Source: a virus (Duplodnaviria; Heunggongvirae; Uroviricota; Caudoviricetes). From it: a DNA stretch of 10,101 nt. This document shows, in pieces, positions 1-9,949 of this stretch. Within the stretch, counting starts at the first letter, position 1; each line of letters opens with the position of its first letter. The position numbers and the translations under genes are program-made. A model generated the notes under the pieces. The model ran no database searches, was not told the DNA's origin, and saw nothing but the letters and a program-made list of their open reading frames with translations. Location of the stretch: the IMG/VR virus record IMGVR_UViG_2617270959_000008; one strand, given 5' to 3'.

Positions 1-1112
1 TTACGCGCCAGGTCAAAGGCCAGAATGCACGGCTGCCCCTCGAACTGCTCAAGGGTCAGTGATTTATCCTCGCAGCTCTGCCAGCTCACCAGGTTGAAAT
101 ACGCCGAACGCGCCGACACCCAGATATTGAGGTGTTTTGTTTTAAAGACGTTTGCCAGACGGGCGTTATTTTTCGCACGCTGCTGCTGACTTAACAAAAA
201 TTCGCGATAAACCGACACGCCAATATTTGGATTGGCTTTTTCCAGCACCTGCGGGTCGGTCCAGTCGTCACCTTCATCAACGGTATAGATGATCCCGAAC
301 AGTTCATCGTTGGGTACCGAACCGTTGAGCATCTCGATGACTTCCCGCCGCTTGTCGTAGCACGGCCCCTCAATGTTGTACCCGGCGGTGGTGATGGCCC
401 ACATCAGTGGCTGACGTCGCGCCCCCATCCCGGTAAGCATCGTGGTATAAAGCGCATCGGTGGCGTGCTCGTGATATTCATCCACCACCGCACAGTGGGG
501 TGATGAACCATCACCAGGGTTACCGATCAGCGGTTCAAACCGCGCGCCATCCTCCGGACGGTTCATGTTTGAGGCGTTAACCTCAATCCCGAACGCTTCC
601 GTCAGCATGGGTGTGCGTTTACACATCAGTCGCGCCGGGCGAAAGACTTCCCACGCCTGTTTCTCTGTCGTGGCACCGGAATACACTTCCGCGCCAAACT
701 CGTTATCACAGGCAAAACAATACAGGGCAACACCGGCAGAGATTGCTGATTTGCCGTTCTTACGGGGGATTTCGGTATACACCTCCCGGAAGCGGCGCAA
801 CCGGGTGCCTTTATTGACCCAGCCAAACGCACAGCAGATCACAAATAGCTGCCACGGCTCCAGCGTGATGGGCATCCGTTTGAATGCCCACTCACCCTTG
901 GTGTGCGGCAACAGCTGAATAAATTTCGCGGCCCGTTCAGCCAGGTCCTTGTCGAAGCGGTAACGAAACGACTTACTTTTTTCCGCCATCAGGTCATCAA
1001 GATGGCGCTGGCAGGCCTGAATCACAAACTGGCAGGCCACAATCTTTCCGCGCACGACATCACGGGCATACTGATTGGCTGCATTTACGTTGGGGTAAGA
1101 TTTCCGGCTCAT
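1..1112 (-). CDS. Phage terminase large subunit, N-terminal 370 codons (gene continues beyond the window start)
   Basis: I checked every minus-strand codon from 1112 down to 3 and found no stop; the ORF track omits it because it runs off the window edge. The ATG at 1112-1110 overlaps the small-terminase stop in an ATGA arrangement. The translation begins [20 protein letters not shown] and contains a Walker-A-like PRKNGKS and a Walker-B-like [10 protein letters not shown], typical of Terminase_1-type large subunits. Confidence 0.85.
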
Positions 1113-1603
1113 GACTCGATGATTTTCAGAAACGGGTTAGTGGCTTTCTTCTGCCCCGCCAGGCCAATCAGACGCTGGCGGCTGCTGGGGTCGAGTCCGA
1201 GCATTGCCCCCGTGCTGCTCATCTCGGACTCCTGTTCTTTCTTGGCGGTCAGCTCCGGGTTTTTGACCCTGCCACCCATTGCACCGGTAATGGTGTTGCC
1301 CTGGCTGGCAATATTTTTCACGGCACGTCGCCAGAACTCATAGGCCACGCACCAACGCTCAAGCACCGCGAGGTCAGTCACGCACAGCAGCCCCTGACCA
1401 CAGAGTTCTTTGGTTGTCAGCTGCCACATGATCGTGGCGAGAGGGAGATTTTCTTCTGCGAACCACTCCGGTGGCTCAACACCTTTGATGGGCGTAAAAA
1501 CAGGTTCATCTTTGTTCAGGGCTCGCTTGCCGGGGTTTCCGGCCAGCGCCTTGCGCGCCGTTGGCTTGGGGCGACGCCCGGAACGCCCCGCCGTTCCAGC
1601 CAT
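1109..1603 (-). CDS. Phage terminase small subunit, P27-family-like
   Basis: The ORF track gives 1109..1612 with a GTG start. An ATG at 1603-1601 is preceded by AGGAG with an 8-nt spacer, so I place the start there. The N-terminus ([25 protein letters not shown]) matches my recollection of the conserved P27-family opening. Position immediately upstream of the large terminase fits. Confidence 0.8.
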
Positions 1604-1612
1604 ATGCGGCAC

Positions 1613-1728
1613 TCCTGGTTAAATTTCATTTTTCGCGGGTATAAAAAAACGATGGGGCGGGCAGTCCGGAAGACGTCAGGTCACAGAGATTTGCCCCGCC
1701 CCTCCCATCAGACAGTTGAGAATTATTA
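1613..1728. other. Intergenic region between HNH endonuclease and small terminase; candidate cos/packaging-initiation region with a GC-rich inverted repeat
   Basis: GGGGCGGG (1654-1661) pairs with CCCGCCCC (1695-1702) as an 8-bp G/C stem around a 33-nt spacer. In HK97-like phages cos lies between the HNH gene and the small terminase gene (established knowledge); the cut site itself cannot be identified by eye. Confidence 0.3.
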
Positions 1729-2079
1729 TCACTTCAGCCGTTCACGGGCCGTCTTCGCCTTATGACAAGGCCAGCACAGACTCTGCAGATTACAGTCGGC
1801 ATCAGTGCCGCCATGCGCTTTAGGGATGATGTGGTCAACGGTTTTCGCCTCACGCACCACACCAGCACGCAGACATAACTGACACAGTCCTTTATCACGC
1901 TTCAGCACGCACGCGCGGATAACATCCCACTTCGAACCGTAGCCGCGCTGGTGACGGGATTGTCTAGGTTTGTACTGCTTCCAGCCTTCGCTTTTGTGGC
2001 TTTCGCAGTAGCCTGACGGGTCTGTGGTTATAGAGCGGCAGCCGCGAACACGGCAGGCTTTTGGCGTTCGTGGTGGCAT
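1729..2079 (-). CDS. HNH endonuclease, terminase-associated (HK97 gp74-like position)
   Basis: 116-aa ORF with a GAGGGGAG ribosome-binding site 8 nt upstream of the ATG. It has an N-terminal Cys cluster (CRVRGC...CESH) and an HNH motif (DHIIPKAHGG...NLQSLCWPCHKAKT). It sits directly upstream of the terminase genes. Confidence 0.85.
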   Translation of the reverse strand: MPPRTPKACRVRGCRSITTDPSGYCESHKSEGWKQYKPRQSRHQRGYGSKWDVIRACVLKRDKGLCQLCLRAGVVREAKTVDHIIPKAHGGTDADCNLQSLCWPCHKAKTARERLK

Positions 2080-2207
2080 GATAGGCTCCCCTCGTAAATG
2101 AGGTGATACACAAAATGAAACAAAAAAATACTGGTAGTACCAGCATCCTAAATTACAGATTCCATAACATGCTCAATGCTGCTAATGGCAAGAAAGGATG
2201 TTTTTAA

Positions 2208-2420
2208 ATGACAAGCGATAATCTGGACTCCAAGCCCACAATTGAAGATGTTGATTTCAAGCATTTGATCTGCGTCGCAGGAGGAATCATCGAGGATCTA
2301 AAAGGCCCATTTATATTCAAGGCTCCAGAAAATATTAGGCGATTACTTAATCATAAGGGAGTGAATGAAATAAGTAATCTCTCTCAAAAATTTAATGCAG
2401 ATTCTCCATCTTGCTATTAG
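2208..2420 (+). CDS. Hypothetical small protein (70 aa) in AT-rich island A
   Basis: ATG preceded by AAAGGA about 9 nt upstream; AT-rich; convergent with the 2497-3090 gene. No recognisable motif. Could be spurious. Confidence 0.4.
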   Translation: MTSDNLDSKPTIEDVDFKHLICVAGGIIEDLKGPFIFKAPENIRRLLNHKGVNEISNLSQKFNADSPSCY

Positions 2421-2496
2421 AGTTCAGCAGCAGGCACTCAGTGAATGCCTGCTGTAACGACTACTCCAATAATAATGGATGCTCTATGGATACATA

Positions 2497-3090
2497 CTAA
2501 AATATGGATGTTAAATAATTGCTAAGTCTTTTTGCATTCTTACAGAATGCCAAAGCATCTTCCTGAGTACATAAGAGCTTTCCTTGGGATATAGGCTTAA
2601 TAGACTCTCCTGTTTTTTCATAGAGCTTAACAATGTCACTAGAAATTTTGTTTGCAGATTGGACATTTTTCAAGGCAGCGATACCTGAAGCCCGCCCTAA
2701 AGATGTCCCGTTGATCTCAATCCCCTTTTTAGATGCAAGCGTTATAGCGGTTAACTCCAATTCGCGCCAAGCTGAAAGTACAGCAACATTAGGCTGAGTA
2801 CTAGCAAGACTCTCAAAAATATTGAAATTCTCAATGAGTTGTGTCGGCAGGACAGGATTTGTTCCAGGTAAATTTTTAATAACCTCTATACTTTTAGATT
2901 CTATTTCAAACATTTCTTTTTTAAATTTAATCTCATAGTCACCTAGCTTAACTGTATTAAGACGACCTAAAACCATTATTATTTCTTTTTTTAAAGTAAA
3001 AAAGACAATCAAACAAGCAAGAACAATAAATAAAACATTGCCTTCTTTAAGAAGCATCTCTATCCAGTAAAAAAAAGTATAGTCCGTCAT
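2497..3090 (-). CDS. Hypothetical membrane-anchored protein (197 aa, one N-terminal transmembrane helix); moron-type accessory gene of unknown function
   Basis: Long ORF in very AT-rich DNA, where stops are frequent by chance. A hydrophobic helix (NVLFIVLACLIVFFTL) near the N-terminus is followed by a soluble domain. It occupies the slot between the spanins and the HNH/terminase genes. A possible sigma70-like promoter lies upstream on the minus strand (GTGATA -35 at plus 3144-3149, 17-bp spacer, TATACT -10 at plus 3121-3126). Confidence 0.65.
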   Translation of the reverse strand: MTDYTFFYWIEMLLKEGNVLFIVLACLIVFFTLKKEIIMVLGRLNTVKLGDYEIKFKKEMFEIESKSIEVIKNLPGTNPVLPTQLIENFNIFESLASTQPNVAVLSAWRELELTAITLASKKGIEINGTSLGRASGIAALKNVQSANKISSDIVKLYEKTGESIKPISQGKLLCTQEDALAFCKNAKRLSNYLTSIF

Positions 3091-3284
3091 TTTCAGTTCT
3101 CAAATAGAAATAGTTCTCTCAGTATACGTATATTGAGCTCTGCTATCACTTAGTTTATACAACGTTATGCTGGCCACACGCTCGTAGTTGACGTGCATGT
3201 GGCTACTCGCTATTTTAGGTATTTTGGACATCTTCATTAATGCTGAACAGGCACTTCTTGCTGCGGTCTTTCCACTTTACTGCT

Positions 3285-3542
3285 TCATGGCTCACTCTTC
3301 TCTGCTTCAATTTTACGAATATCAGCCTTATCCCTATTACAGGCAGCCAGCACTGACAGCAGGCTCACGTTTAAATCCAGACTATCTTTGTAAGTCAGCG
3401 GATCAGGAATAGCTGGCTGTGGGGTTTCAGCGGTCAGGTTCGCCGGTAGTGGTACCGCCGGAACTGGCACGTAAATTGTCCGCGTACCGGCGCAGCCGCT
3501 CAGTTGCACGAGCAGGAACAAGACGGGAAGCGCAATCATCAT
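3285..3542 (-). CDS. o-spanin (Rz1-like outer-membrane lipoprotein), overlapping the 3' end of Rz in another frame
   Basis: Lipoprotein signal with lipobox LSGC followed by a proline-rich mature region (CAGTRTIYVPVPAVPLPANLTAETPQPAIPDP). It starts inside Rz and extends past the Rz stop (overlapped architecture). The start is ambiguous: ATG at 3542 or TTG at 3548; the ORF-track start at 3608 would give an implausibly long leader. Confidence 0.6.
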   Translation of the reverse strand: MMIALPVLFLLVQLSGCAGTRTIYVPVPAVPLPANLTAETPQPAIPDPLTYKDSLDLNVSLLSVLAACNRDKADIRKIEAEKSEP

Positions 3543-3819
3543 TCTCAACAGCCACTTTGATATCTTCCTGGGTTCTCTGTGACTCCAGTGCGATCTGCTG
3601 TTTTGCATGCTGGTTAGCCTCCAGAACTGTATTTACGATTTGTATTGATTGCAGGACGTTATTGGTAATGGCAGTTGCCGATTCAGCATTTTGTACAGCC
3701 TCATCAGCACGTTTCTTTTCATGCTGATATTTGCTGTAGTAGTAATTCGCTGACCAGATGAAAGAGCCAATGACAGTAAAGAAGAAAGCAGAGATAGCCA
3801 ACTTATAACTCAACTTCAT
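3427..3819 (-). CDS. i-spanin (Rz-like inner-membrane spanin)
   Basis: 130-aa ORF immediately after the endolysin. N-terminal transmembrane helix (LAISAFFFTVIGSFIW) followed by a charged, probably coiled-coil periplasmic region; contains the Rz1-like lipoprotein ORF in another frame. It overlaps the endolysin 3' end by 17 nt. Confidence 0.7.
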   Translation of the reverse strand: MKLSYKLAISAFFFTVIGSFIWSANYYYSKYQHEKKRADEAVQNAESATAITNNVLQSIQIVNTVLEANQHAKQQIALESQRTQEDIKVAVENDDCASRLVPARATERLRRYADNLRASSGGTTTGEPDR

Positions 3820-4279
3820 TTACCACCCCACCAGCCTCTTTAAATCGGGCAATCAGGTCACCGATTCTATGTTCATACTGACCGTAACCAGCGCCCGGCA
3901 GTGAAGCCCAGATATTGCTGCAACGGTCGATAGCCTGACGAATATCACCGCGATCAATCATCGGTAAAGCGCCACGCTCTTTAATCTGTTGCAGTGCCAC
4001 AGCGTCCTGGCTTTTCGGAGAGAAGTCTTTCAGGCCAAGCTGCTTACGATAGGAATCCCACCAACGGGAAAGAAGCTGGTAGCGCCCGGCTGCTGTTGAT
4101 TTGAGTTTGGGGTTTAGCGTGACAAGTTTGCGAGGGTGATCGGAGTAATCAGTAAATAGCTCTCCGCCTACAATGACGTCATAACCATGATTTCTGGTTT
4201 TCTGCCGTCCGTTATCCGTTCCTTCTGACCATGCCACCATATCGAGGAAAGCTTTACGCTGGGAATTTAGTACCTGCAT
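3803..4279 (-). CDS. R: Endolysin, lambda R-type lytic transglycosylase
   Basis: 158-aa product (…NSQRKAFLDM.AWSEGTDNGRQKTRNHGYDVIVGGELFTDYSDHPRKLVTLNPKLKST.AGRYQLLSRWWD.YRKQLGLKDFSPKSQDAVALQQIKERGALPMIDRGDIRQAIDRCSNIWASLPGAGYGQ…) is near-identical over most of its length to bacteriophage lambda R as I recall it. GGAG ribosome-binding site 6 nt upstream of the ATG. Confidence 0.92.
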   Translation of the reverse strand: MQVLNSQRKAFLDMVAWSEGTDNGRQKTRNHGYDVIVGGELFTDYSDHPRKLVTLNPKLKSTAAGRYQLLSRWWDSYRKQLGLKDFSPKSQDAVALQQIKERGALPMIDRGDIRQAIDRCSNIWASLPGAGYGQYEHRIGDLIARFKEAGGVVNEVEL

Positions 4280-4282
4280 AAA

Positions 4283-4609
4283 TTACTCCTTAGAGCCACC
4301 AAACTTATTACCGATTACTCTCATTGCAGCCCCACGAATAGCATCGACACCGATCAACCCAACGCCACCACCAATGGCAACAGAAAGCGATTTAGGCCAT
4401 CCGACATACTCAAGAGCGGATGCAAAAGTCAGCGTCAGAGCGCCACAGAGTAGAATTTCGAGTGTTTTTCGCTTCCAGCCACCACCACCGCCAAAATAGG
4501 CAATGCGCAAACCAGCCATAACGATCGACATAATCACTGCGCCCAGCGGTGTGTCTCCACGCCACCAGCTCTGGACCAACTCCAACCAGGTATTTGGGTT
4601 ATGAGGCAT
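4283..4609 (-). CDS. Holin, class I, lambda S family (divergent)
   Basis: 108-aa ORF immediately upstream of the endolysin. Three predicted transmembrane segments and a charged C-terminus (RVIGNKFGGSKE). The pattern resembles lambda S105 but with low identity. Confidence 0.8.
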   Translation of the reverse strand: MPHNPNTWLELVQSWWRGDTPLGAVIMSIVMAGLRIAYFGGGGGWKRKTLEILLCGALTLTFASALEYVGWPKSLSVAIGGGVGLIGVDAIRGAAMRVIGNKFGGSKE

Positions 4610-4761
4610 TTGTAGTTATCTCTCACCTCGCTGATACAGCAGGTGCAAATTGAGGGAACATCATGTACCGCAAATCAGAAGCGGAAACGTCAAAGAAGCC
4701 GAACCAATGGATAACTGCGGAATAGGCCAGAACCAACGAATCCCCAGCCCCAGAAACGACA

Positions 4762-4782
4762 AAACCCGCTCGACGCGGGTTT
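4762..4782 (-). terminator. Intrinsic-terminator-like hairpin, stronger on the minus strand, about 150 nt upstream of the holin
   Basis: 8-bp stem AAACCCGC (4762-4769) pairs with GCGGGTTT (4775-4782) around a 5-nt loop. On the minus-strand RNA the stem is followed by UUUUGUCGUUUCU. On the plus strand the downstream tract is weaker. Confidence 0.4.
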
Positions 4783-4827
4783 AAGCTGTGTGGCGAAGTA
4801 ACCACTCTTAACACGATACAATACTTT

Positions 4828-4856
4828 TTGCGTACGCGTTAAGATTTTTTTATAAT
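4828..4856 (+). promoter_or_regulatory. Candidate sigma70 promoter for the large island-B gene
   Basis: TTGCGT (4828-4833), 17-bp spacer, consensus TATAAT (4851-4856), about 70 nt upstream of the ATG at 4926. Plausible own promoter for the cargo gene, but AT-rich DNA yields such matches easily. Confidence 0.35.
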
Positions 4857-4925
4857 TACTTACCTTTCTCACACCAAATGTAAAAGCAATATTTTTTGAT
4901 AATCCTGTTGTTTAAAGGGAATAGC

Positions 4926-7900
4926 ATGAAATCAATTGTACACTTATCCGACTTACACTTATCAGACTCAAAAAAATATGGTTTTCACTGGAAGAAAGCC
5001 AAAGAACTGGTCACAGTATTAGTTAATGATATACATTCATTAAGTAAAGAAAACAACCTCCAGATAGATGCCATTTTTTTTACTGGGGATTTAACGTTTT
5101 CTGGAACCAAAGAGCAATTTCAACTATTTGATGAACATTTCCTCTCTCCACTTATTCAAAAGCTGAACATCAGTAAAAAAAACATTTTTATAACCCCAGG
5201 CAATCATGATGTGGACAGAAGTAAAGTTCATCCACTTGAAAAACAACTGCGAACTGGTTCGGACGAAAATTTCATATCATCATACTTTGATATGATAAAT
5301 AATGGAGAGTATTCATGGGAACGTCTCTACGAGTACTGTGAATATAATAAAACAATATTAGATCATCATTCTGATGTTGAACAATCTGGACGCATGATTA
5401 CATGCTTTAAAGTAACAAACAAATTATACGTCGTTAGCGTAAATAGCGCATGGTTAGCTATGGATGATAATGATATTGGTAACTTACGAATTACCCAAAA
5501 GCAAATTGATTTTATCAATCGTGCCAAAATACCTTCTGATGCAAAAATAATATTATTATGCCATCATCCTTTAGATTGGTTGAATAAGAATGATCGTGAC
5601 ATTTTTTCAACATTTATTGAAAAAAAAGTTTCAATGTTCTTTTTTGGTCATATGCATGATTTTAAACAAAAACTAGAATCTAGTTTTTGTGAAAACATCA
5701 CCCTCTTTTTGCAAGCAGGAACTTTGGATACTAGTGAAAATGTATCAGGCTATTCATTAATAAATTTTAATAGTTCAAATGTCATATCAGACGGAAGAAT
5801 TTTTTATAGAAAATATAATAAAGAAAAAACATGCTATGAACCATGGGAAGAAAGAGGAAATGGTGGTGTTTTTGATTTCACCACTGAGAAAACTCTAACT
5901 TTTGACTCTGAAAAATTTGCAACATTATCTAATGAGATTCTAGAGAAAACTGATAAGGATTTATTAATTAACATTGGAATCTCTGATGAAAAGAAAAAAA
6001 GTCTAAGAACTCTATTTACTGAACCAAATTTCCTTGAATTTGCTCTTGGAGCCATGCCTTCTATGGAGATTAAGTCCACACAAGAATTACTAGAAGGACG
6101 AAACAACCTTGTGATTGTAGGAAACCATAGCTCAGGTAAAACATCTCTTTTAAAATACCTATTCATTAAGAGTCTAGAAAAACAGGCCTGCAAAGACTTC
6201 AGTAACTTTGCATTTTTCTTAGATTTAAATGCAATTGAATTAAATAGATTAAATACAATTGTAAGCGCATTATGTACACAATATTTCAATGCAGATTCGA
6301 CCACATCTTTTGAAGAAAAAATTAAAAAAATGTTACATGAGGGAAGATGTGTTATATATATTGATAATCTGGACAATATAAATACAAAAGAACAATGTGT
6401 AATTTCTGATTTTTTTATAAAATTCAAAGAATGTAGATTTATCGTAACTGCTGGCTATAATAATTCAGATCTGGTAGTTAAAATATTATCAGATGAAAGC
6501 AAAGCTAAATTTCATGCAATTGCTATAGGTTCATTACGCAGATCTAATGTTCGCGATATTGTATCAAGATGGCACGACACAACATCACAAAATATAATAT
6601 ACAAAGAAATCACGCGAACAATCAACAATTCGCAACTTCCTCATAATTATTTTACATACTCAATGCTTTTAGCTATTTATGAAGTTGATCATGACGTTAA
6701 AGGAATATTAAGTGAGTCTGATATTATAGAAAACTTCATAGAAATTTTGCTTCGTAAACATTTTATGGATACTCCGCCTAATAAGCCACAATTTAAAGAA
6801 CTTCGGCATTTTCTTGGATATTTAGGATTTACATTATTCAAAAACAAATGTAATTTTATTTCAAATAATGATCTTCTGCAGACTGCAATAATTTTCAATA
6901 GAGATACCATGCATGATTATCAAGTAGAAGACTATATAAAACCATTAAAAGAATGTGGAATATTGAAAGAAGAGCTATGTAATGTGATTTTCTCGCAGCC
7001 TTGCTTTTTATACTATTCCATCGCTTATTTCATGAAGCATAACGAAGAGCTAAAGAAAGAAATTTTATCCGATAATAATTATCTACATCTACATAAAGTT
7101 ATTGAATACTATTCATCGCAGAACTCATCTAGTCTTGATTTATTATACTTACTTAAAAAGAAGACTAATGCAATCAAATCTTCTTTATCTGAACGAATGC
7201 TCGAAGATAAGGGAATAAATATTGAAGATATAAAGATTGAAGACTCTAATACTTTCTCTATTTTAGATATGGTATCAACCCAAGATGATTTCGAAAAAAA
7301 GATAGAATCACTCCGTGCAGATAGAGAAAAAGATGACGCGCGACTAGATGAATTATCACCTTTATCTGATAAAGATAAAAAAGCTAATATATCAAATGTT
7401 AGAGCGGAAGGTAATAATAATCTGTTACATGATCTTATTAACACTTTATCTCTTTATGCAAGGGTATTCCGTAGTACTGAATTATCTATGGAAAGAGAAA
7501 ATATATTAAATATATTTAATGACCTTGTAAAGGGTTATGTTTTTTACATGAAAGCGTCACTAGTACTAATGGATGATTCATTTGTTCTTCCAGTAATACT
7601 CCCTGCATTAGAAAAGAAAATGCAAGAGGATAAATTAACCGATAACGAAAGACAACGAGTTTTTGAAATGTTTAAACTAGTATTGTCTTTAGTTCGCTCA
7701 ATGATCCCAAATAACATACAGTTTATTATGAGCAATGACTTAAGCTCGAAAAAACCACGTATTGCAAACATTATTACTGAATCAAAAGACTCAAATAGCA
7801 ATCCTGTAGAAAAGGCTATTTTAACTTTCACCTTAATGGATATTAAAGATGAAATGGTTATACAATTAGCTAACGATTTAGCAAAGATACAAAACAAAGT

Positions 7901-8078
7901 TGTTCAAGAATCTCTTTTCTTCAAGATTAATCAAATTATAACAAGTAACTATGATTTAAAAAGAACTGAAGAAGAAGCATTGAAAGAGTTAGCAAAAAAC
8001 ATTGGCATTAAAAGAAAATTAATTCTCACACCCAAGATTAGTGATGCCTTTAATACGTTAAACCGCATAGGACATTAA
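4926..8078 (+). CDS. Large fusion protein (about 1050 aa): N-terminal SbcD/Mre11-like metallophosphoesterase domain + central P-loop NTPase (STAND/AAA-like spacing) + about 450-aa helical C-terminal region; candidate single-gene anti-phage defense protein
   Basis: Uninterrupted 3.15-kb ORF in about 27% G+C DNA. The ATG at 4926 has an AAGGGA ribosome-binding site; the ORF-track start at 4896 is a TTG. Metallophosphoesterase motifs are all present: IVHLSDLHLS (DxH, 4950-4958), FFTGDLTF (GD, 5085-5090), GNHD (5199-5210), CHH (5562-5570), GHMHD (5646-5660); the first three resemble SbcD/Mre11. Walker A is VGNHSSGKTS (6120-6146) and Walker B is CVIYIDNLD (6351-6374). Confidence 0.9.
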   Translation: MKSIVHLSDLHLSDSKKYGFHWKKAKELVTVLVNDIHSLSKENNLQIDAIFFTGDLTFSGTKEQFQLFDEHFLSPLIQKLNISKKNIFITPGNHDVDRSKVHPLEKQLRTGSDENFISSYFDMINNGEYSWERLYEYCEYNKTILDHHSDVEQSGRMITCFKVTNKLYVVSVNSAWLAMDDNDIGNLRITQKQIDFINRAKIPSDAKIILLCHHPLDWLNKNDRDIFSTFIEKKVSMFFFGHMHDFKQKLESSFCENITLFLQAGTLDTSENVSGYSLINFNSSNVISDGRIFYRKYNKEKTCYEPWEERGNGGVFDFTTEKTLTFDSEKFATLSNEILEKTDKDLLINIGISDEKKKSLRTLFTEPNFLEFALGAMPSMEIKSTQELLEGRNNLVIVGNHSSGKTSLLKYLFIKSLEKQACKDFSNFAFFLDLNAIELNRLNTIVSALCTQYFNADSTTSFEEKIKKMLHEGRCVIYIDNLDNINTKEQCVISDFFIKFKECRFIVTAGYNNSDLVVKILSDESKAKFHAIAIGSLRRSNVRDIVSRWHDTTSQNIIYKEITRTINNSQLPHNYFTYSMLLAIYEVDHDVKGILSESDIIENFIEILLRKHFMDTPPNKPQFKELRHFLGYLGFTLFKNKCNFISNNDLLQTAIIFNRDTMHDYQVEDYIKPLKECGILKEELCNVIFSQPCFLYYSIAYFMKHNEELKKEILSDNNYLHLHKVIEYYSSQNSSSLDLLYLLKKKTNAIKSSLSERMLEDKGINIEDIKIEDSNTFSILDMVSTQDDFEKKIESLRADREKDDARLDELSPLSDKDKKANISNVRAEGNNNLLHDLINTLSLYARVFRSTELSMERENILNIFNDLVKGYVFYMKASLVLMDDSFVLPVILPALEKKMQEDKLTDNERQRVFEMFKLVLSLVRSMIPNNIQFIMSNDLSSKKPRIANIITESKDSNSNPVEKAILTFTLMDIKDEMVIQLANDLAKIQNKVVQESLFFKINQIITSNYDLKRTEEEALKELAKNIGIKRKLILTPKISDAFNTLNRIGH

Positions 8079-8592: not shown

Positions 8593-8937
8593 CTATTTTA
8601 TGAAATAAAAACACCCTTCAATAAAACCTAAAGCAGTTTGCAATTCCTTTCTAATCGTACCGTCCGAACATTTTCGCTTCTTCGCAATAGTTCTAAGCGA
8701 AATACCAATAACAAAATGAGCTATAATTAGCTCATATTCCTCTGGTTTATACTTGCGCAACCGAGCCACACAACTATCTATCATAATGCCTTCGTCATCA
8801 TCACACTGAATCCGGGACTTTTTGCCATGAGGTAAAAGCCCCTTGAAGCCAGCGGCTACCGGTTGCCAATCCACACCACTGTTATCTGCTGCAGCCCATG
8901 CTCCCCAGCGGTCCAATACTTCATACATATCACGCAT
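8593..8937 (-). CDS. Late-gene antiterminator Q, QuuD-type
   Basis: Product MRDMYEVLDRWGAWAAADNSGVDWQPVAAGFKGLLPHGKKSRIQCDDDEGIMIDSCVARLRKYK... aligns with my recollection of E. coli DLP12 QuuD (MRDIQMVLERWGAWAA...AAGFKGL...CSDG...). The ATG at 8937 has a GGAGA ribosome-binding site 6 nt upstream; the ORF-track start at 8952 is a TTG. It lies immediately upstream of the lysis cassette region. Confidence 0.8.
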   Translation of the reverse strand: MRDMYEVLDRWGAWAAADNSGVDWQPVAAGFKGLLPHGKKSRIQCDDDEGIMIDSCVARLRKYKPEEYELIIAHFVIGISLRTIAKKRKCSDGTIRKELQTALGFIEGCFYFIK

Positions 8938-8954
8938 CAACTTTCTCCACAAAA

Positions 8955-9542
8955 TCAGGCCAGCACGCCAATTGCCAGCGCACGATCGATAAAACGAAAT
9001 ATCAGCTCCAGCTGGGAGCCATACTTCTCTTCAAATGCCACGGTATCCGCATGCAGCTCGTCGTGATGCTTTCTGCACAAAGGCAACACAAAGAGGTCAT
9101 GCGCTTTTGTACCCATTCCACCCTGACCGTGGCCTATCAGGTGGTGGGGATCATCAGCAGGCTTTCCACAACATGCACACGGCTGTGTCTTAACCCAGCG
9201 CGTGTACTTTTCATTAACCCAGCGGTGACGTTTTGGGCGTAACATAAAAGACTCCGGCGACTCCGGCTCCACTTTCAGCGCCAGCACCTTTTTCGCTTTA
9301 TCCTGGATGATGCTGGTGGCAGGAACCGAAGGAACAAGGTCACTTTCCCGGGTGACAGACGGCACTACAGGCTTCGGTAATCTCAGTGCCTTACGGGCTG
9401 CACTTTCCGGTAAGGCATCCGCCAGGTCATTACGAACCAGCCACCAGCATAGTTCCGGCATTGTCACAACGTGACTATCATCAAAACCGAGATCCCGACG
9501 CACAACAGACAACATCCAGCGGGCACAGTTATCCGTTGCCAT
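8955..9542 (-). CDS. DUF968-like phage protein, C-terminal Cys/His-rich (HNH-like or zinc-binding) portion
   Basis: 195-aa ORF containing CACCGKPADDPHHLIGHGQGGMGTKAHDLFVLPLCRKHHDELH, which I recall as the conserved core of DUF968 proteins found next to Q in lambdoid prophages. Its stop lies 15 nt from the Q start. Confidence 0.7.
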   Translation of the reverse strand: MATDNCARWMLSVVRRDLGFDDSHVVTMPELCWWLVRNDLADALPESAARKALRLPKPVVPSVTRESDLVPSVPATSIIQDKAKKVLALKVEPESPESFMLRPKRHRWVNEKYTRWVKTQPCACCGKPADDPHHLIGHGQGGMGTKAHDLFVLPLCRKHHDELHADTVAFEEKYGSQLELIFRFIDRALAIGVLA

Positions 9543-9949
9543 TGATTCCAGCCATTCGTGAACTGATCGCGCAGCTGGTTATCGCAGTGCCAGCACAGAC
9601 GGATTGCGCCCGGCGCGTGTCGCATTGTGGTCATGTTCTCGCTGTGCCAGTCGGAATGAGGCCACTGGCAGCCTTTTTCACGAAGTAACCAGCTTTCAAG
9701 ACATTCCACTCCACCAGCACGACGGATCACTGCCTCATTGCGGAACACGGCCCGAACGGCAGGATCATCCGCCAGCGGTTGTGATGCTGCCGGAACGGCA
9801 CCACTGGCGAAAGATGAATAACGTTCCGGCTCAGGCTCCAGCAGGACACGCCCCTGCATAAACAGGGGCATCAGCTCTGAACCTGGTCTGAACAATACGA
9901 TCCCCATACGCGGGGCAATTTCAGGGGTCAGTAGTGCTCTCACGGTCAC
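9464..9949 (-). CDS. Hypothetical phage protein (161 aa); may be the N-terminal part of the DUF968-like gene separated by a frameshift, or an independent overlapping gene
   Basis: GTG start at 9949 preceded by a GAGGTGA ribosome-binding site that overlaps the stop of the upstream gene. Contains CWHCDNQ. It overlaps the 8955-9542 ORF by 79 nt in a different frame. Confidence 0.5.
   Translation of the reverse strand: MTVRALLTPEIAPRMGIVLFRPGSELMPLFMQGRVLLEPEPERYSSFASGAVPAASQPLADDPAVRAVFRNEAVIRRAGGVECLESWLLREKGCQWPHSDWHSENMTTMRHAPGAIRLCWHCDNQLRDQFTNGWNQWQRITVPAGCCLLCVGISVLMIVTL

What the first reader, a model, noticed from the sequence alone, without database searches (positions are those of the whole stretch)
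2100..3180. Second AT-rich moron island between spanins and HNH/terminase, encoding a membrane-anchored protein of unknown function
Seen in sequence: low-G+C DNA between Rz1 (ends 3285) and the HNH gene (starts 2079) carries a 197-aa minus-strand ORF with a single N-terminal transmembrane helix plus a small convergent 70-aa plus-strand ORF. Established knowledge: this position corresponds to the bor moron slot of lambda, and membrane-anchored moron proteins in such slots are often superinfection-exclusion, abortive-infection or host-interaction factors. Inference only; no motif was recognised.
Basis: partly seen in the sequence, partly recalled or inferred. Interest (0 to 1): 0.5.

Follow-up and report, generated by a model that had tools for sequence, protein, structure and literature searches.

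The report
Membrane-tethered inactive-HEPN prophage moron gene
A 1.2-kb AT-rich cargo cassette between the lysis and DNA-packaging genes of an E. coli prophage encodes a membrane-tethered protein whose cytoplasmic domain has the fold of HEPN RNases (common anti-phage weapons) but has lost their catalytic residues, so it probably acts by binding or at the membrane, not by cutting RNA.

Summary
Window 2080-3284 is a low-GC insert (0.28-0.41, against about 0.55 in the flanks) exactly between the LysC/Rz1 stop and the HNH start. It carries a real 197-aa minus-strand gene with an N-terminal hydrophobic helix. The convergent 70-aa ORF exists, but its gene status is unproven.

The slot is a true variable cargo site. 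1,269 of 5,426 E. coli genomes have the flanks, 20 have this island, and others carry different cargo or only 26 bp.

The lambdoid-prophage clade (E. coli, Yersinia and unnamed metagenomic contigs with enterobacterial-type phage genes) has replaced the catalytic R-N-x3-H motif (I164, K165, His deleted). It remains under purifying selection. It also keeps a conserved promoter-like element, and its homologs usually have a terminator just downstream.

Best reading: an accessory, probably lysogen-expressed, inner-membrane-tethered pseudo-HEPN that acts in phage exclusion or abortive infection without RNase activity. That function is inferred. It is a new variant of a known kind and of moderate interest.

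The parts
2080..3284 (.). AT-rich cargo island (moron cassette) inserted between the LysC/Rz1 stop and the HNH start
   Evidence: GC is 0.28-0.41 against about 0.55 in the flanks. The full island is in 20 of 5,426 E. coli genomes, while the flanks are in 1,269. The empty slot in strain D53-1 leaves 26 bp between LysC and HNH. Other strains carry unrelated cargo there. Homology to other loci begins at the HNH ATG.
2497..3090 (-). 197-aa gene: single-pass membrane-tethered protein with a HEPN-fold (DUF4145-like) domain that lacks the catalytic motif
2992..3039 (-). Codons 18-33 (NVLFIVLACLIVFFTL): predicted transmembrane anchor, N-out/C-in
   Evidence: Kyte-Doolittle hydropathy is 3.25 over 15 aa and 2.2-2.3 over 19-21 aa. 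The segment is conserved in the clade, and 137 of 148 wider-family members have an equivalent segment. Flanking charge is -2 (N side) and +3 (C side). It lies inside one long modelled helix.
2500..2844 (-). Codons 83-197: cytoplasmic HEPN-fold helical bundle (helices 83-98, 100-121, 136-145, 151-168, 176-195)
2584..2613 (-). Codons 160-169 (TGESIKPISQ): the position of the family's LRxLRNxAxH motif. The catalytic Arg is replaced by I164, the Asn by K165, and the His falls on a gap after S168.
   Evidence: Alignments A2 and A4. hhalign column mapping. Motif states are RNH in 112 of 156 sequences and none of the three in all window-clade members and Yersinia P0011. The protein contains no histidine.
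3121..3149 (-). Sigma-70-type promoter-like element (GTGATA, 17 nt, TATACT) about 30 nt upstream of the ATG
   Evidence: Consensus scan, 9 of 12 matches. The same 'AAGTGA, 17 nt, TAnAnT' layout at the same distance from the ATG appears in five loci (L003, L004, L013, L006, L014) whose proteins are 47-69% identical, with non-conserved spacers. This is a prediction only.
2428..2454 (.). Stable GC-rich hairpin between the convergent ORFs (12-bp stem, no T-run)
   Evidence: Inverted repeat I3. Fold of 2425-2500 gives dG -25.6 kcal/mol, z=-3.5 on the minus strand and -22.7, z=-3.0 on the plus strand.
2115..2149 (-). Intrinsic-terminator-like hairpin plus T-run at the HNH-proximal edge of the island
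   Evidence: Terminator scan and fold z=-2.5. Equivalent GC-hairpin plus T-run terminators follow the homologous gene in L004, L009, L013, L014 and L032. The unrelated GrlR cargo also ends in its own terminator before HNH.
2208..2420 (+). 70-aa convergent ORF, gene status unproven
   Evidence: ORF with an AGGA 9 nt upstream of the ATG. Matches phrog_22590, unknown function, E=3.6e-48. Only 94-99% identical homologs exist. RefSeq does not annotate it. It is absent beside divergent homologs. Its length is not beyond chance, P about 0.06-0.10. Its single substitution is K18N.
3285..3608 (-). Flank: LysC/Rz1-like o-spanin gene, embedded in Rz at 3427-3819
   Evidence: Pfam LysC 1.4e-16 and PHROG Rz-like spanin. 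RefSeq calls it lysC.
1729..2079 (-). Flank: HNH endonuclease gene preceding the P27-family small terminase (1109-1612)
   Evidence: Pfam HNH 5.3e-15 and Terminase_4 1.1e-20. RefSeq annotation agrees.

Best explanation
The island is a self-contained moron cassette: a promoter-like element, the 197-aa gene, a hairpin and a T-run terminator. It sits in the variable cargo slot between the spanin genes and HNH/terminase of an E. coli lambdoid prophage.

Shown or strongly supported:
- The product is a single-pass inner-membrane protein with a short N-terminus predicted to face the periplasm.
- A roughly 40-residue helical stalk follows, then a cytoplasmic HEPN-fold domain.
- The protein descends from a roughly 190-aa 'single TM + DUF4145-like HEPN RNase' family that temperate phages, phage-plasmids and mobile islands carry as accessory cargo.
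- In the lambdoid-prophage clade (E. coli, Yersinia and unnamed metagenomic contigs with enterobacterial-type phage genes) the catalytic R-N-x3-H motif has been replaced by [IV]-K with the His deleted. The protein therefore cannot be a canonical HEPN RNase.
- It is nevertheless kept under purifying selection and has its own set of invariant residues.

Inferred mechanism:
- It is expressed from its own promoter in the lysogen, and also by late read-through.
- It sits in the inner membrane as an oligomer.
- It acts as an accessory phage-exclusion or abortive-infection factor through a non-catalytic activity of the HEPN scaffold. That activity would be binding a ligand, RNA or protein at the membrane, or driving oligomerisation of the TM helices. 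Nuclease-inactive Csx28 works in the second way.
- It does not act by RNA cleavage.
For: Identity and homology:
- 264 representatives at E<=1e-3, nearly all 180-200 aa.
- The family consensus is ...LAWP...KYKDxExxF...SPxAAIxEAWRExE...LRxLRNxAxH.
- 30 of 54 members hit Pfam DUF4145, and others hit HEPN_RiboL-PSP, HEPN_Swt1 or HepT.
- The clade-against-family hhalign gives 99.9%, E=2.7e-33 over 186 columns. The C-terminal domain alone gives 99.6%, E=6e-24.

Fold:
- AF2 mean pLDDT is 79 with 8 sequences and 92.6 with 54, with the same helices in the C-terminal domain.

Motif loss:
- Arg aligns to I164, Asn to K165, and the His to a gap.
- The protein has no histidine.
- The motif decays stepwise: RNxxxH, then RKxxx[ND], then [VI]K.

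Still functional:
- 5 of 8 substitutions are synonymous.
- 51 columns are invariant across relatives at 47-99% identity.

Moron cassette:
- Low GC.
- 20 genomes carry the island against 1,269 that carry the flanks.
- An empty slot and alternative cargoes exist.
- The promoter-like element is conserved in six loci.
- Terminators follow the gene in five homolog loci.

Mobile, accessory character of the family:
- Phage D6 orf24 lies between the dar operon and the portal gene, and D6-like plasmids carry the same gene.
- A P2-like Pseudomonas phage carries a member next to its integrase.
- Another member lies between an integrase and Abi_alpha.

Precedents:
- Csx28 is an N-terminal TM helix plus a nuclease-inactive HEPN bundle that forms a membrane pore (bioRxiv 10.1101/2021.11.02.466367).
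- DUF4145 proteins fused to a TM segment, and inactive HEPN domains acting as binding modules, are described in PMC3710099.
- The same prophage carries a PDC-S60/DS-8-like defence-type gene in its other AT-rich island.
Against: - There is no functional evidence of any kind.
- There are no hits to PADLOC, Pfam or NCBIfam models.
- No known defence gene lies next to members of this clade.
- Loss of the catalytic dyad removes the one activity that makes HEPN proteins defensive, so 'defence' rests on family ancestry, the moron architecture and analogy.
- The recurrent position right after spanin genes (six of eight contexts) could instead reflect a lysis-linked or late function.
- The promoter, terminator and TM topology are predictions. 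No dedicated TM predictor and no expression data were available.
- Foldseek against the PDB gave no significant hit.
Confidence: 0.45

Rival explanations
1. Lysis-linked or late accessory protein. It would be co-transcribed with the late operon and act at the inner membrane during the carrier phage's own lytic cycle, for example by tuning holin/spanin timing or tethering something at the membrane. It would not act in the lysogen against other phages.
For: - It has the same orientation as the lysis and packaging genes, with no terminator predicted between LysC and the gene.
- Six of eight distinct contexts, including Yersinia at 35% identity, place it immediately after spanin genes.
- It is a small single-TM protein, as many lysis regulators are.
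Against: - The neighbouring lysis genes belong to different families from locus to locus. Holins are Phage_holin_3_1, holin_2_1 or phrog_1350. Endolysins are GH24, GH19 or Phage_lysozyme. Spanins are DUF2570/LysC, Phage_lysis or phrog_1275.
- L006 and L009 lack upstream lysis genes.
- Only 20 of 1,269 E. coli genomes with the same LysC/HNH flanks carry it, and some have an empty slot.
- It has its own conserved promoter-like element, its homologs usually have a terminator just downstream, and its GC content is foreign.
- Neither the gene nor its protein occurs in any of 50,697 deposited phage genomes.
Confidence: 0.15
2. It is still a nuclease, or another enzyme, using an alternative active site built from the clade-specific invariant residues (R109, E110, E112, R133, S135, K141, Y157, K165, S168, D178, N185, K187). 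On this reading it would be a membrane-tethered toxic effector of the classical HEPN abortive-infection type.
For: - The clade has many invariant polar or charged residues of its own. K165 is invariant at the position of the motif Asn.
- The WRELE helix shared with active members is retained.
- PMC3710099 notes HEPN families that use alternative catalytic residues.
Against: - Both the Arg and the His of Rx4-6H are gone, and the protein has no histidine anywhere.
- Mutating the equivalent residues abolishes the activity of the DUF4145 protein RAZR (PMC13017515).
Confidence: 0.12
3. Anti-defence decoy. A catalytically dead paralogue heteromerises with active TM-HEPN defence proteins carried by competing elements such as D6-like phage-plasmids. 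It poisons their composite dimeric active site and so protects the lambdoid phage.
For: - There is full-length homology, including the TM and stalk region, to active family members that occur on E. coli and Salmonella phage-plasmids.
- HEPN active sites are formed across dimers (PMC13043305; PMC13017515).
- Read-through from the late promoter would supply the protein during lytic growth.
Against: - The D6-type gene is rare in E. coli, at 9 of 5,426 genomes, and never co-occurs with the island. The expected overlap is only about 0.03 genomes, so this is uninformative.
- Identity to active members is only about 20%, and the family's conserved W-P motif in the TM segment is lost. This argues against specific heteromerisation.
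- There is no precedent for it in the papers read.
Confidence: 0.08
4. Host-physiology modulator. A non-catalytic HEPN-like domain binds a host protein or nucleotide at the membrane, in the manner of MtlR/YggD or sacsin HEPN, and gives the lysogen a fitness or virulence trait unrelated to phages. Bor does this from the equivalent lambda slot.
For: - The lambda slot equivalent holds bor, a lysogen-expressed host-fitness gene (own knowledge).
- Other cargo in this same slot includes a GrlR-family regulator.
Against: - The protein's sequence relatives are the DUF4145-type phage-borne family, not MtlR.
- No host pathway genes are linked to it.
- It is distributed across isolates from humans, pigs, chickens, sediment and a platypus, with no obvious niche signal.
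Confidence: 0.08
5. Two-gene module. The 70-aa convergent ORF encodes a partner, antitoxin-like or regulatory, of the 197-aa protein.
For: - The ORF has an AGGA at a suitable distance from its ATG and matches phrog_22590 over its full length.
- The segment is well conserved among E. coli copies, with 1 change in 213 bp against 11 in 194 bp in the upstream spacer.
Against: - It is absent from every divergent homolog locus, where a terminator follows the gene directly.
- Only near-identical homologs exist.
- Its length is not beyond chance, and PGAP does not call it.
- Its only substitution is non-synonymous.
Confidence: 0.05

Closest known systems
Single-TM + DUF4145-like HEPN proteins of mobile elements (e.g. 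Escherichia phage D6 orf24, YP_009914701.1, 'DUF4145 domain-containing protein'; Pseudomonas phage UFJF_PfPro XLE45413.1)
   Same: - Same size (about 185-200 aa) and same architecture: an N-terminal hydrophobic helix, a stalk carrying K-Y/L-G/K-D-x-E-x-x-F, and a C-terminal HEPN bundle with the AWRExE helix.
- Profile-profile homology is full length.
- These proteins are also accessory cargo of temperate phages.
   Different: - Those proteins keep L-R-x-L-R-N-x-A-x-H and the L-A-W-P motif. The window clade has [IV]-K with no His, and has lost W-P.
- The window protein does not itself reach any Pfam DUF4145 score.
- The genomic slot differs. The window clade usually lies after the spanin genes, whereas D6 orf24 lies between the dar operon and the portal gene, and the Pseudomonas phage member lies beside the integrase.
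Csx28 (type VI-B2 CRISPR accessory protein)
   Same: - An N-terminal transmembrane helix plus a cytoplasmic four-helix HEPN-like bundle.
- The HEPN motif is not used for nuclease activity.
- The function depends on oligomerisation in the inner membrane.
- It is the best mechanistic analogue.
   Different: - Csx28 needs Cas13b, and no CRISPR genes are present here.
- Csx28 retains a divergent R/H motif that it uses as a protomer interface; here both residues are gone.
- Pore formation is untested here.
RAZR / PD-T7-4 (zinc finger + DUF4145 HEPN RNase defence)
   Same: The HEPN domain is of the DUF4145 type, as in the wider family. It is a single-gene anti-phage system from E. coli.
   Different: - RAZR is soluble, has an N-terminal zinc finger, and needs its Arg and His for defence.
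- The window protein has a TM helix in place of the zinc finger and has lost both residues.
- Only one wider-family member weakly hit the PD-T7-4 model, at E=0.0034.
HepS (Gifsy-1 prophage HEPN abortive-infection protein)
   Different: [quoted passage not shown]
Non-catalytic HEPN-fold proteins (MtlR/YggD, sacsin HEPN)
   Different: These are soluble regulators or chaperone domains, with no TM anchor and no phage context, and the sequence link runs to DUF4145-type proteins instead.
Lambda bor moron (slot analogue)
   Same: Accessory cargo between Rz/Rz1 and the packaging genes of a lambdoid phage, with foreign composition (own knowledge; slot variability shown).
   Different: Bor is a lipoprotein transcribed opposite to the late operon. 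This gene is co-oriented with the late operon, has no lipobox and is unrelated in sequence and fold.

Membership tests
HEPN superfamily | Four-helix up-down alpha-helical bundle (HEPN fold) | tested here: met
   [not shown]
HEPN superfamily | Rx4-6H catalytic motif | tested here: not met
   No Rx4-6H anywhere and no histidine in the protein. The motif columns read S-I-K-P-I-S, so Arg is replaced by I164, Asn by K165, and the His falls on a gap. PMC3710099 recognises motif-less, presumably inactive HEPN families.
HEPN superfamily | Sequence homology to a recognised HEPN family | tested here: met
   The link is transitive. The window clade matches the TM-HEPN family at 99.9%, E=2.7e-33 (99.6%, E=6e-24 for the domain alone). 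30 of 54 members of that family hit DUF4145, and others hit HEPN_RiboL-PSP, HEPN_Swt1 or HepT.
Pfam DUF4145 (PF13643) | Direct match of the protein to the Pfam model at or above the gathering score | tested here: not met
   No Pfam family matched at E<=0.1 for the 197-aa protein. Only more distant family members hit DUF4145, with a best E-value of 6.3e-08.
Single-TM + DUF4145-like HEPN family (phage D6 orf24 type) | About 190 aa with an N-terminal hydrophobic helix, a conserved stalk and a C-terminal HEPN domain | tested here: met
   Full-length profile alignment over 186 columns. The hydrophobic segment is present in 137 of 148 members and in the window protein. The shared F56, P100 and E112 signature positions are retained.
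Single-TM + DUF4145-like HEPN family (phage D6 orf24 type) | Family signature residues W-P in the TM helix and R-N-x3-H in the HEPN domain (each at least 90% or the majority state) | tested here: not met
   W-P is replaced by I22-V23 and R by I164. R, N and H are all present in 112 of 156 sequences and all absent in the window clade.
Csx28 | Sequence or fold match to Csx28, and genetic linkage to Cas13b | tested here: not met
   [not shown]
Csx28 | Octameric inner-membrane pore that depolarises the cell | not testable with these tools
   Only monomer prediction was available. This needs biochemistry or membrane-potential assays.
Phage moron (autonomous accessory cassette) | Present or absent between otherwise homologous phages at a fixed slot, with deviant base composition | tested here: met
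   20 genomes carry the island against 1,269 that carry the flanks. The slot can be empty or hold alternative cargoes. GC is 0.28-0.41 against about 0.55.
Phage moron (autonomous accessory cassette) | Own promoter and terminator allowing expression from the repressed prophage | tested here: inconclusive
   A conserved promoter-like 'AAGTGA, 17 nt, TAnAnT' appears in six loci. Terminator-like hairpins follow the gene. These are sequence predictions only, with no expression data.
Lambda Bor family | Lipoprotein signal peptide with lipobox; transcription opposite to the late operon; Bor sequence family | tested here: not met
   No Pfam or PHROG Bor hit. The N-terminus is acidic with no lipobox. 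The gene is co-oriented with the late genes.
HEPN-MNT toxin-antitoxin | Adjacent minimal nucleotidyltransferase (MNT) antitoxin gene | tested here: not met
   The neighbours are LysC, the 70-aa ORF (no family beyond an unknown PHROG) and HNH. No MNT gene occurs in any homolog locus.
Catalogued anti-phage defence systems (PADLOC-DB v2) | Match to a defence-system protein model | tested here: not met
   The 197-aa and 70-aa proteins hit no PADLOC family at E<=0.1. Wider-family members give only scattered weak hits.

The most novel reading that the evidence does not exclude
The prophage clade is a stand-alone, CRISPR-independent counterpart of Csx28. The HEPN fold has been stripped of its RNase dyad and repurposed as the cytoplasmic oligomerisation and sensing ring of a single-TM inner-membrane pore. 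A lambdoid prophage would express it to depolarise the cell and abort superinfection, or to time events at its own lysis. This would show that nuclease-dead HEPN scaffolds were recruited as membrane effectors more than once, in this case by phages themselves.
Probability: 0.15. Interest if true: 0.7.

Novelty: new variant of a known kind. Interest (0 to 1): 0.45.

Why it matters
HEPN RNases are among the most widespread anti-phage and toxin modules. Almost every characterised bacterial example depends on the Rx4-6H dyad.

This clade is membrane-tethered, phage-borne, has clearly lost that dyad and is still under purifying selection. It also keeps its own promoter-like element, and its homologs usually have a terminator just downstream. 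It offers a compact 197-aa, single-gene test case for what a HEPN scaffold does when it is no longer a nuclease. The candidates are a membrane effector, a sensor, a decoy or a regulator.

The work also gives a family assignment to a protein that RefSeq, Pfam, PHROGs and PADLOC all leave as hypothetical. It shows that PHROG 30030 starts at M39 and so omits the conserved N-terminal hydrophobic anchor. And it documents the LysC-HNH junction of P27-terminase-type lambdoid prophages as a cargo hotspot that could be mined for more accessory genes.

The practical importance is moderate. The gene is rare (20 of 5,426 complete E. coli genomes) and its function is still inferred.

Tried and rejected
- Direct family scans of the 197-aa and 70-aa proteins against Pfam, NCBIfam, PADLOC and PDB sequences gave nothing usable. 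The weak NCBIfam darobactin hit (E=0.008, 16 bits against a cutoff of 45) was dismissed as noise.
- PHROGs gave only unknown-function families.
- Megablast and tblastn against 50,697 phage genomes found no copy of the island or of either protein.
- The scan of species-representative genomes with the clade alignment found none. Viral contigs gave only near-identical E. coli copies.
- Foldseek against BFVD and the PDB gave no significant hits. The afdb50 library was unavailable.
- The M39 start implied by PHROG 30030 was rejected, because residues 1-38 are conserved as protein down to 35% identity and no Shine-Dalgarno sequence precedes M39.
- The 45-aa ORF at 3100-3237 was rejected as a gene. 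It has 2 synonymous and 6 non-synonymous changes and lies in the most variable part of the island.
- A cleavable signal peptide was rejected because the N-region is acidic.
- Rfam and repeat scans of the island found nothing relevant.
- Co-occurrence of the island with D6-type active homologs was uninformative because both are rare.
- A literature search for the RefSeq accession found nothing.
Full report

Yes. The window is a stretch of an E. coli lambdoid prophage, 100% identical to strain 300033 and two other records over the island. Its late genes are on the minus strand:
- antiterminator Q, 8593-8952
- holin, 4283-4609
- GH24 endolysin, 3803-4279
- Rz, 3427-3819
- LysC/Rz1, 3285-3608
- HNH, 1729-2079
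- P27-family small terminase, 1109-1612

Between the LysC stop (3285) and the HNH start (2079), GC falls to 0.28-0.41. The packaging genes are at 0.55-0.58 and the lysis genes at 0.47-0.52.

The two ORFs differ sharply in how well they are supported.

The 197-aa ORF is a real gene:
- None of 3,000 composition-matched simulations of the island gave an ORF of 197 aa; the longest was 186.
- Among 15 E. coli copies it has 5 synonymous and 3 non-synonymous substitutions. The upstream spacer carries 11 changes in 194 bp.
- Relatives at 35-69% identity align over the whole length.

The 70-aa ORF is unproven:
- Its length is not beyond chance, with P about 0.06-0.10.
- It has only 94-99% identical homologs.
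- RefSeq does not annotate it in any of the eight records inspected.
- It is missing next to every divergent homolog.
- Its one substitution is non-synonymous.
- In its favour are a plausible Shine-Dalgarno sequence and a full-length match to an unknown-function PHROG.

**2. Is the slot a moron slot?**

Yes.
- The LysC and HNH flanks occur in 1,269 of 5,426 complete E. coli genomes, but only 20 carry this island, always on the chromosome.
- In strain D53-1 the slot is empty, with 26 bp between LysC and HNH.
- Other strains hold two plus-strand hypothetical genes, a GrlR-family regulator or a 169-aa hypothetical protein.
- On the HNH side, homology to the other loci begins at the HNH ATG, and the GrlR cargo brings its own terminator.
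- The island travels with different early-region, Q and holin modules, as in AR_0061.

The equivalence with lambda's bor position rests on my own knowledge of the lambda map.

**3. Start codon, membrane anchor and topology**

PHROG 30030 covers only residues 39-197 of a 159-position profile, which implies annotations that start at M39 and lose the hydrophobic helix. Three points count against that start:
- Residues 6-38 (FYWxEMLLKEGxVLFIVLACLIVFFxLKKEII) are conserved as protein down to 35% identity.
- No Shine-Dalgarno sequence precedes M39.
- The AR_0061 copy has a 1-bp deletion at 3069, but RefSeq annotates it from M12 (186 aa), which retains the helix.

Residues 18-33 score 3.25 on the Kyte-Doolittle scale over 15 residues and 2.2-2.3 over 19-21. 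The N flank is acidic (net -2) and the C flank basic (+3). The positive-inside rule therefore predicts an uncleaved N-out/C-in anchor with the bulk of the protein in the cytoplasm. This is a prediction, since no dedicated TM predictor was available.

**4. What the protein is**

Direct scans found nothing in Pfam, NCBIfam, PADLOC or PDB sequences. The word-indexed homology search found only seven clusters. Three independent routes then converged.

*Fold.*
- An AF2 model from eight sequences had pLDDT 79. It shows a long N-terminal helix and a five-helix C-terminal domain.
- These were followed by MtlR/YggD, the SO_3166 HEPN toxin, LsoA/RnlA, Csm6, the Gifsy-1 protein HepS and AbiV.
- Re-prediction with 54 sequences gave pLDDT 92.6 with the same helices in the C-terminal domain.
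- Foldseek was not significant.

*Exhaustive profile search.*
- 264 cluster representatives scored E<=1e-3. Nearly all are 180-200 aa and align from the N-terminal region onwards.
- Their consensus is a hydrophobic helix with L-A-W-P, a stalk with K-Y-K-D-x-E-x-x-F, an S-P-x-A-A-I-x-E-A-W-R-E-x-E helix, and L-R-x-L-R-N-x-A-x-H. The last is the textbook HEPN R-N-x3-H motif.
- 112 of 148 have RNxxxH and 137 of 148 have the hydrophobic N-terminus.

*Curated families.*
- 30 of 54 members hit Pfam DUF4145, and others hit HEPN_RiboL-PSP, HEPN_Swt1 or HepT-like.
- Profile-profile comparison of the window clade with motif-bearing members gives 99.9%, E=2.7e-33 over 186 columns.
- The C-terminal domain alone gives 99.6%, E=6e-24, so the link does not depend on the TM region.

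**5. The twist: the catalytic motif is gone**

- In every alignment the family's catalytic Arg column is I164 (I or V throughout the clade). The Asn column is the invariant K165, and the His column is a gap after S168.
- The window protein contains no histidine at all.
- Intermediates exist. P0013 has RNQANH, P0024 and P0088 have R-K-x3-[ND], Yersinia P0011 has V-K, and the window clade has I/V-K.
- The family's W-P in the membrane helix is also lost.
- The clade is nonetheless highly constrained, with 51 invariant columns among relatives at 47-99% identity. These include W108-R-E-L-E-L-T-A, R133-A-S-G, K141, Y157, G161, K165, S168, C174, D178 and F182-C-x-N-A-K.

So the protein is not decaying. 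It is a pseudo-enzyme branch with a retained, different function.

**6. Where the clade and the family live**

Contexts of the motif-less clade:
- After holin, endolysin and Rz (L003).
- After Q, a DUF3800 gene, holin, a GH19 endolysin and a DUF2570 spanin (L004).
- After LysC (L013).
- After an Rz-like spanin (L014).
- In Yersinia enterocolitica, where it is common: after holin, lysozyme, Rz and LysC, and before ParB_N, Mom and terminase.
- L006 (after UmuD-like and unknown phage genes) and L009 (after an unknown gene) are exceptions.

The adjoining holins, endolysins and spanins belong to different families from locus to locus. The linkage is therefore to the slot, not to a particular lysis protein.

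Motif-bearing relatives are also mobile cargo:
- Phage D6 orf24, between the dar anti-restriction operon and the portal gene, and about a dozen D6-like E. coli and Salmonella plasmids.
- A P2-like Pseudomonas phage, beside its integrase.
- A metagenomic contig, between an integrase and an Abi_alpha gene.
- One member lies among chromosomal housekeeping genes.

**7. Expression signals (predicted)**

- A GTGATA, 17 nt, TATACT element at 3149-3121 lies about 30 nt upstream of the ATG.
- The same 'AAGTGA, 17 nt, TAnAnT' layout at the same distance recurs in L003, L004, L013, L006 and L014, while spacers and flanks have diverged.
- Five homolog loci have a canonical GC-hairpin plus T-run terminator within about 150 nt after the gene.
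- In the window the gene is followed by a strong hairpin without a T-run at 2428-2454 (dG about -21 to -26 kcal/mol, z=-3.5).
- About 280 nt further on, a hairpin plus T-run at 2149-2115 lies just before HNH.

This is the classic moron layout. It allows expression from the repressed prophage, and Q-antiterminated late transcription would also read through. None of this has been tested experimentally.

**8. Mechanism**

*Shown or strongly supported.* An accessory cassette encodes a single-pass, membrane-tethered HEPN-fold protein, derived from a DUF4145-type RNase family, with the catalytic dyad lost and still under selection.

*Inferred.* It acts in inter-phage conflict (exclusion or abortive infection) by a non-catalytic route at the inner membrane. 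The grounds are:
- The family's ancestry in HEPN defence-type RNases. RAZR/PD-T7-4 shows DUF4145 acting as a defence RNase that needs its Arg and His (PMC13017515). HepS shows a lambdoid-prophage HEPN abortive-infection protein (PMC13043305).
- The moron architecture.
- The presence of a PDC-S60/DS-8-like gene in the same prophage's other AT-rich island.
- The Csx28 precedent. Csx28 has an N-terminal TM helix and a nuclease-inactive HEPN bundle, and it forms an octameric depolarising pore in which the HEPN motif residues serve as an interface.
- The view in PMC3710099 that motif-less HEPN domains act as binding modules.

I put about 0.85 on the structural and evolutionary identity and about 0.4 on the exclusion or abortive-infection role, hence 0.45 overall.

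*Rivals.*
- A lysis-linked or late role, 0.15.
- A residual enzyme using alternative residues, 0.12.
- A dominant-negative decoy against active family members, 0.08.
- A host-physiology modulator, 0.08.
- A two-gene module with the 70-aa ORF, 0.05.

**9. Comparison with known systems and novelty**

In architecture it most resembles Csx28, but it is not a member of that family. There is no sequence or fold hit and no Cas13b.

By descent it belongs to the TM + DUF4145-like HEPN family. PMC3710099 lists TM fusions of DUF4145, with the motif conserved in about 80% of members. However, it fails that family's signature residues, and it fails the HEPN-defining Rx4-6H motif. It is therefore best described as a catalytically degenerate offshoot.

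It is unrelated to Bor, is not a HEPN-MNT toxin-antitoxin pair, and is not in PADLOC.

Verdict: a new variant of a known kind. A specialist would find a prophage-specific, membrane-tethered dead HEPN mildly to moderately surprising. It makes the question of what nuclease-dead HEPN scaffolds do directly testable with one small gene. Interest is 0.45.

Noticed in passing
window 4896-8078 (+): The first AT-rich island, between Q and the holin gene, encodes a 1,060-aa metallophosphoesterase + NACHT/STAND protein. It matches PADLOC PDC-S60 (E=1.3e-97) and, below the curated cutoff, NCBIfam DS8_antiphage (171 bits against 790). It is probably a defence gene related to the validated DS-8 metallophosphatase system.
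   Followed up: partly
window 8955-9949 (-): Two overlapping ORFs (195 aa and 161 aa) correspond to a DUF968 gene that RefSeq marks as frameshifted in strain 300033, so it is a pseudogene.
   Followed up: no
L001 (NZ_CM128588.1) 1-8033: In strain 300033 the prophage looks defective. The portal, protease, capsid and head-completion genes between the large terminase and the tail sheath are missing (compare AR_0061, L002), and the sheath, DNA-circularisation, baseplate and repressor genes are pseudogenes.
   Followed up: no
window 3118-3137: A 20-bp near-palindrome (CTCAGTATACGTATATTGAG) overlaps the -10 element of the putative moron promoter and could be an operator. Its outermost pair is broken (3137 G to A) in most other E. 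coli copies, and it is not seen in divergent loci.
   Followed up: partly
L002 (AR_0061), position equivalent to window 3069: A 1-bp deletion in the T-run at codon 8 frameshifts the annotated start. RefSeq instead starts at M12 (186 aa), which keeps the membrane helix. The first 11 residues may therefore be dispensable.
   Followed up: partly
L006 about 2361-2405: The 5' end of an HNH gene (ATGCCGCCGCGTACACCAAAAGCCTGCTGTGTTCGCGGCT, close to window 2079-2040) lies about 83 nt downstream of the 67%-identical homolog. The upstream side there is not a lysis cassette, and a different low-GC single-TM gene follows. This points to recombination at the same slot.
   Followed up: no
window 3427-3819 (-): The Rz (DUF2570, i-spanin) ORF is intact in the window and matches phrog_214 (E=3.8e-47). 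RefSeq does not annotate it in strain 300033, where only the embedded lysC is called.
   Followed up: no
L031-L034 about 11260-11900 (Yersinia prophage): The Yersinia prophages that carry the homolog also carry a ParE/RelB or PemK-like toxin-antitoxin pair between the terminase and portal genes, and variable cargo (NA37, or methyltransferase/AAA_15) between Q and the holin gene. The same two-hotspot pattern is seen in the window.
   Followed up: no
PHROG 30030, compared with window 2977-3090: The PHROG profile (159 positions) starts at M39 of the 197-aa protein. It therefore omits the conserved N-terminal 38 residues, including the membrane anchor, most likely because its member annotations start too far downstream.
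   Followed up: yes
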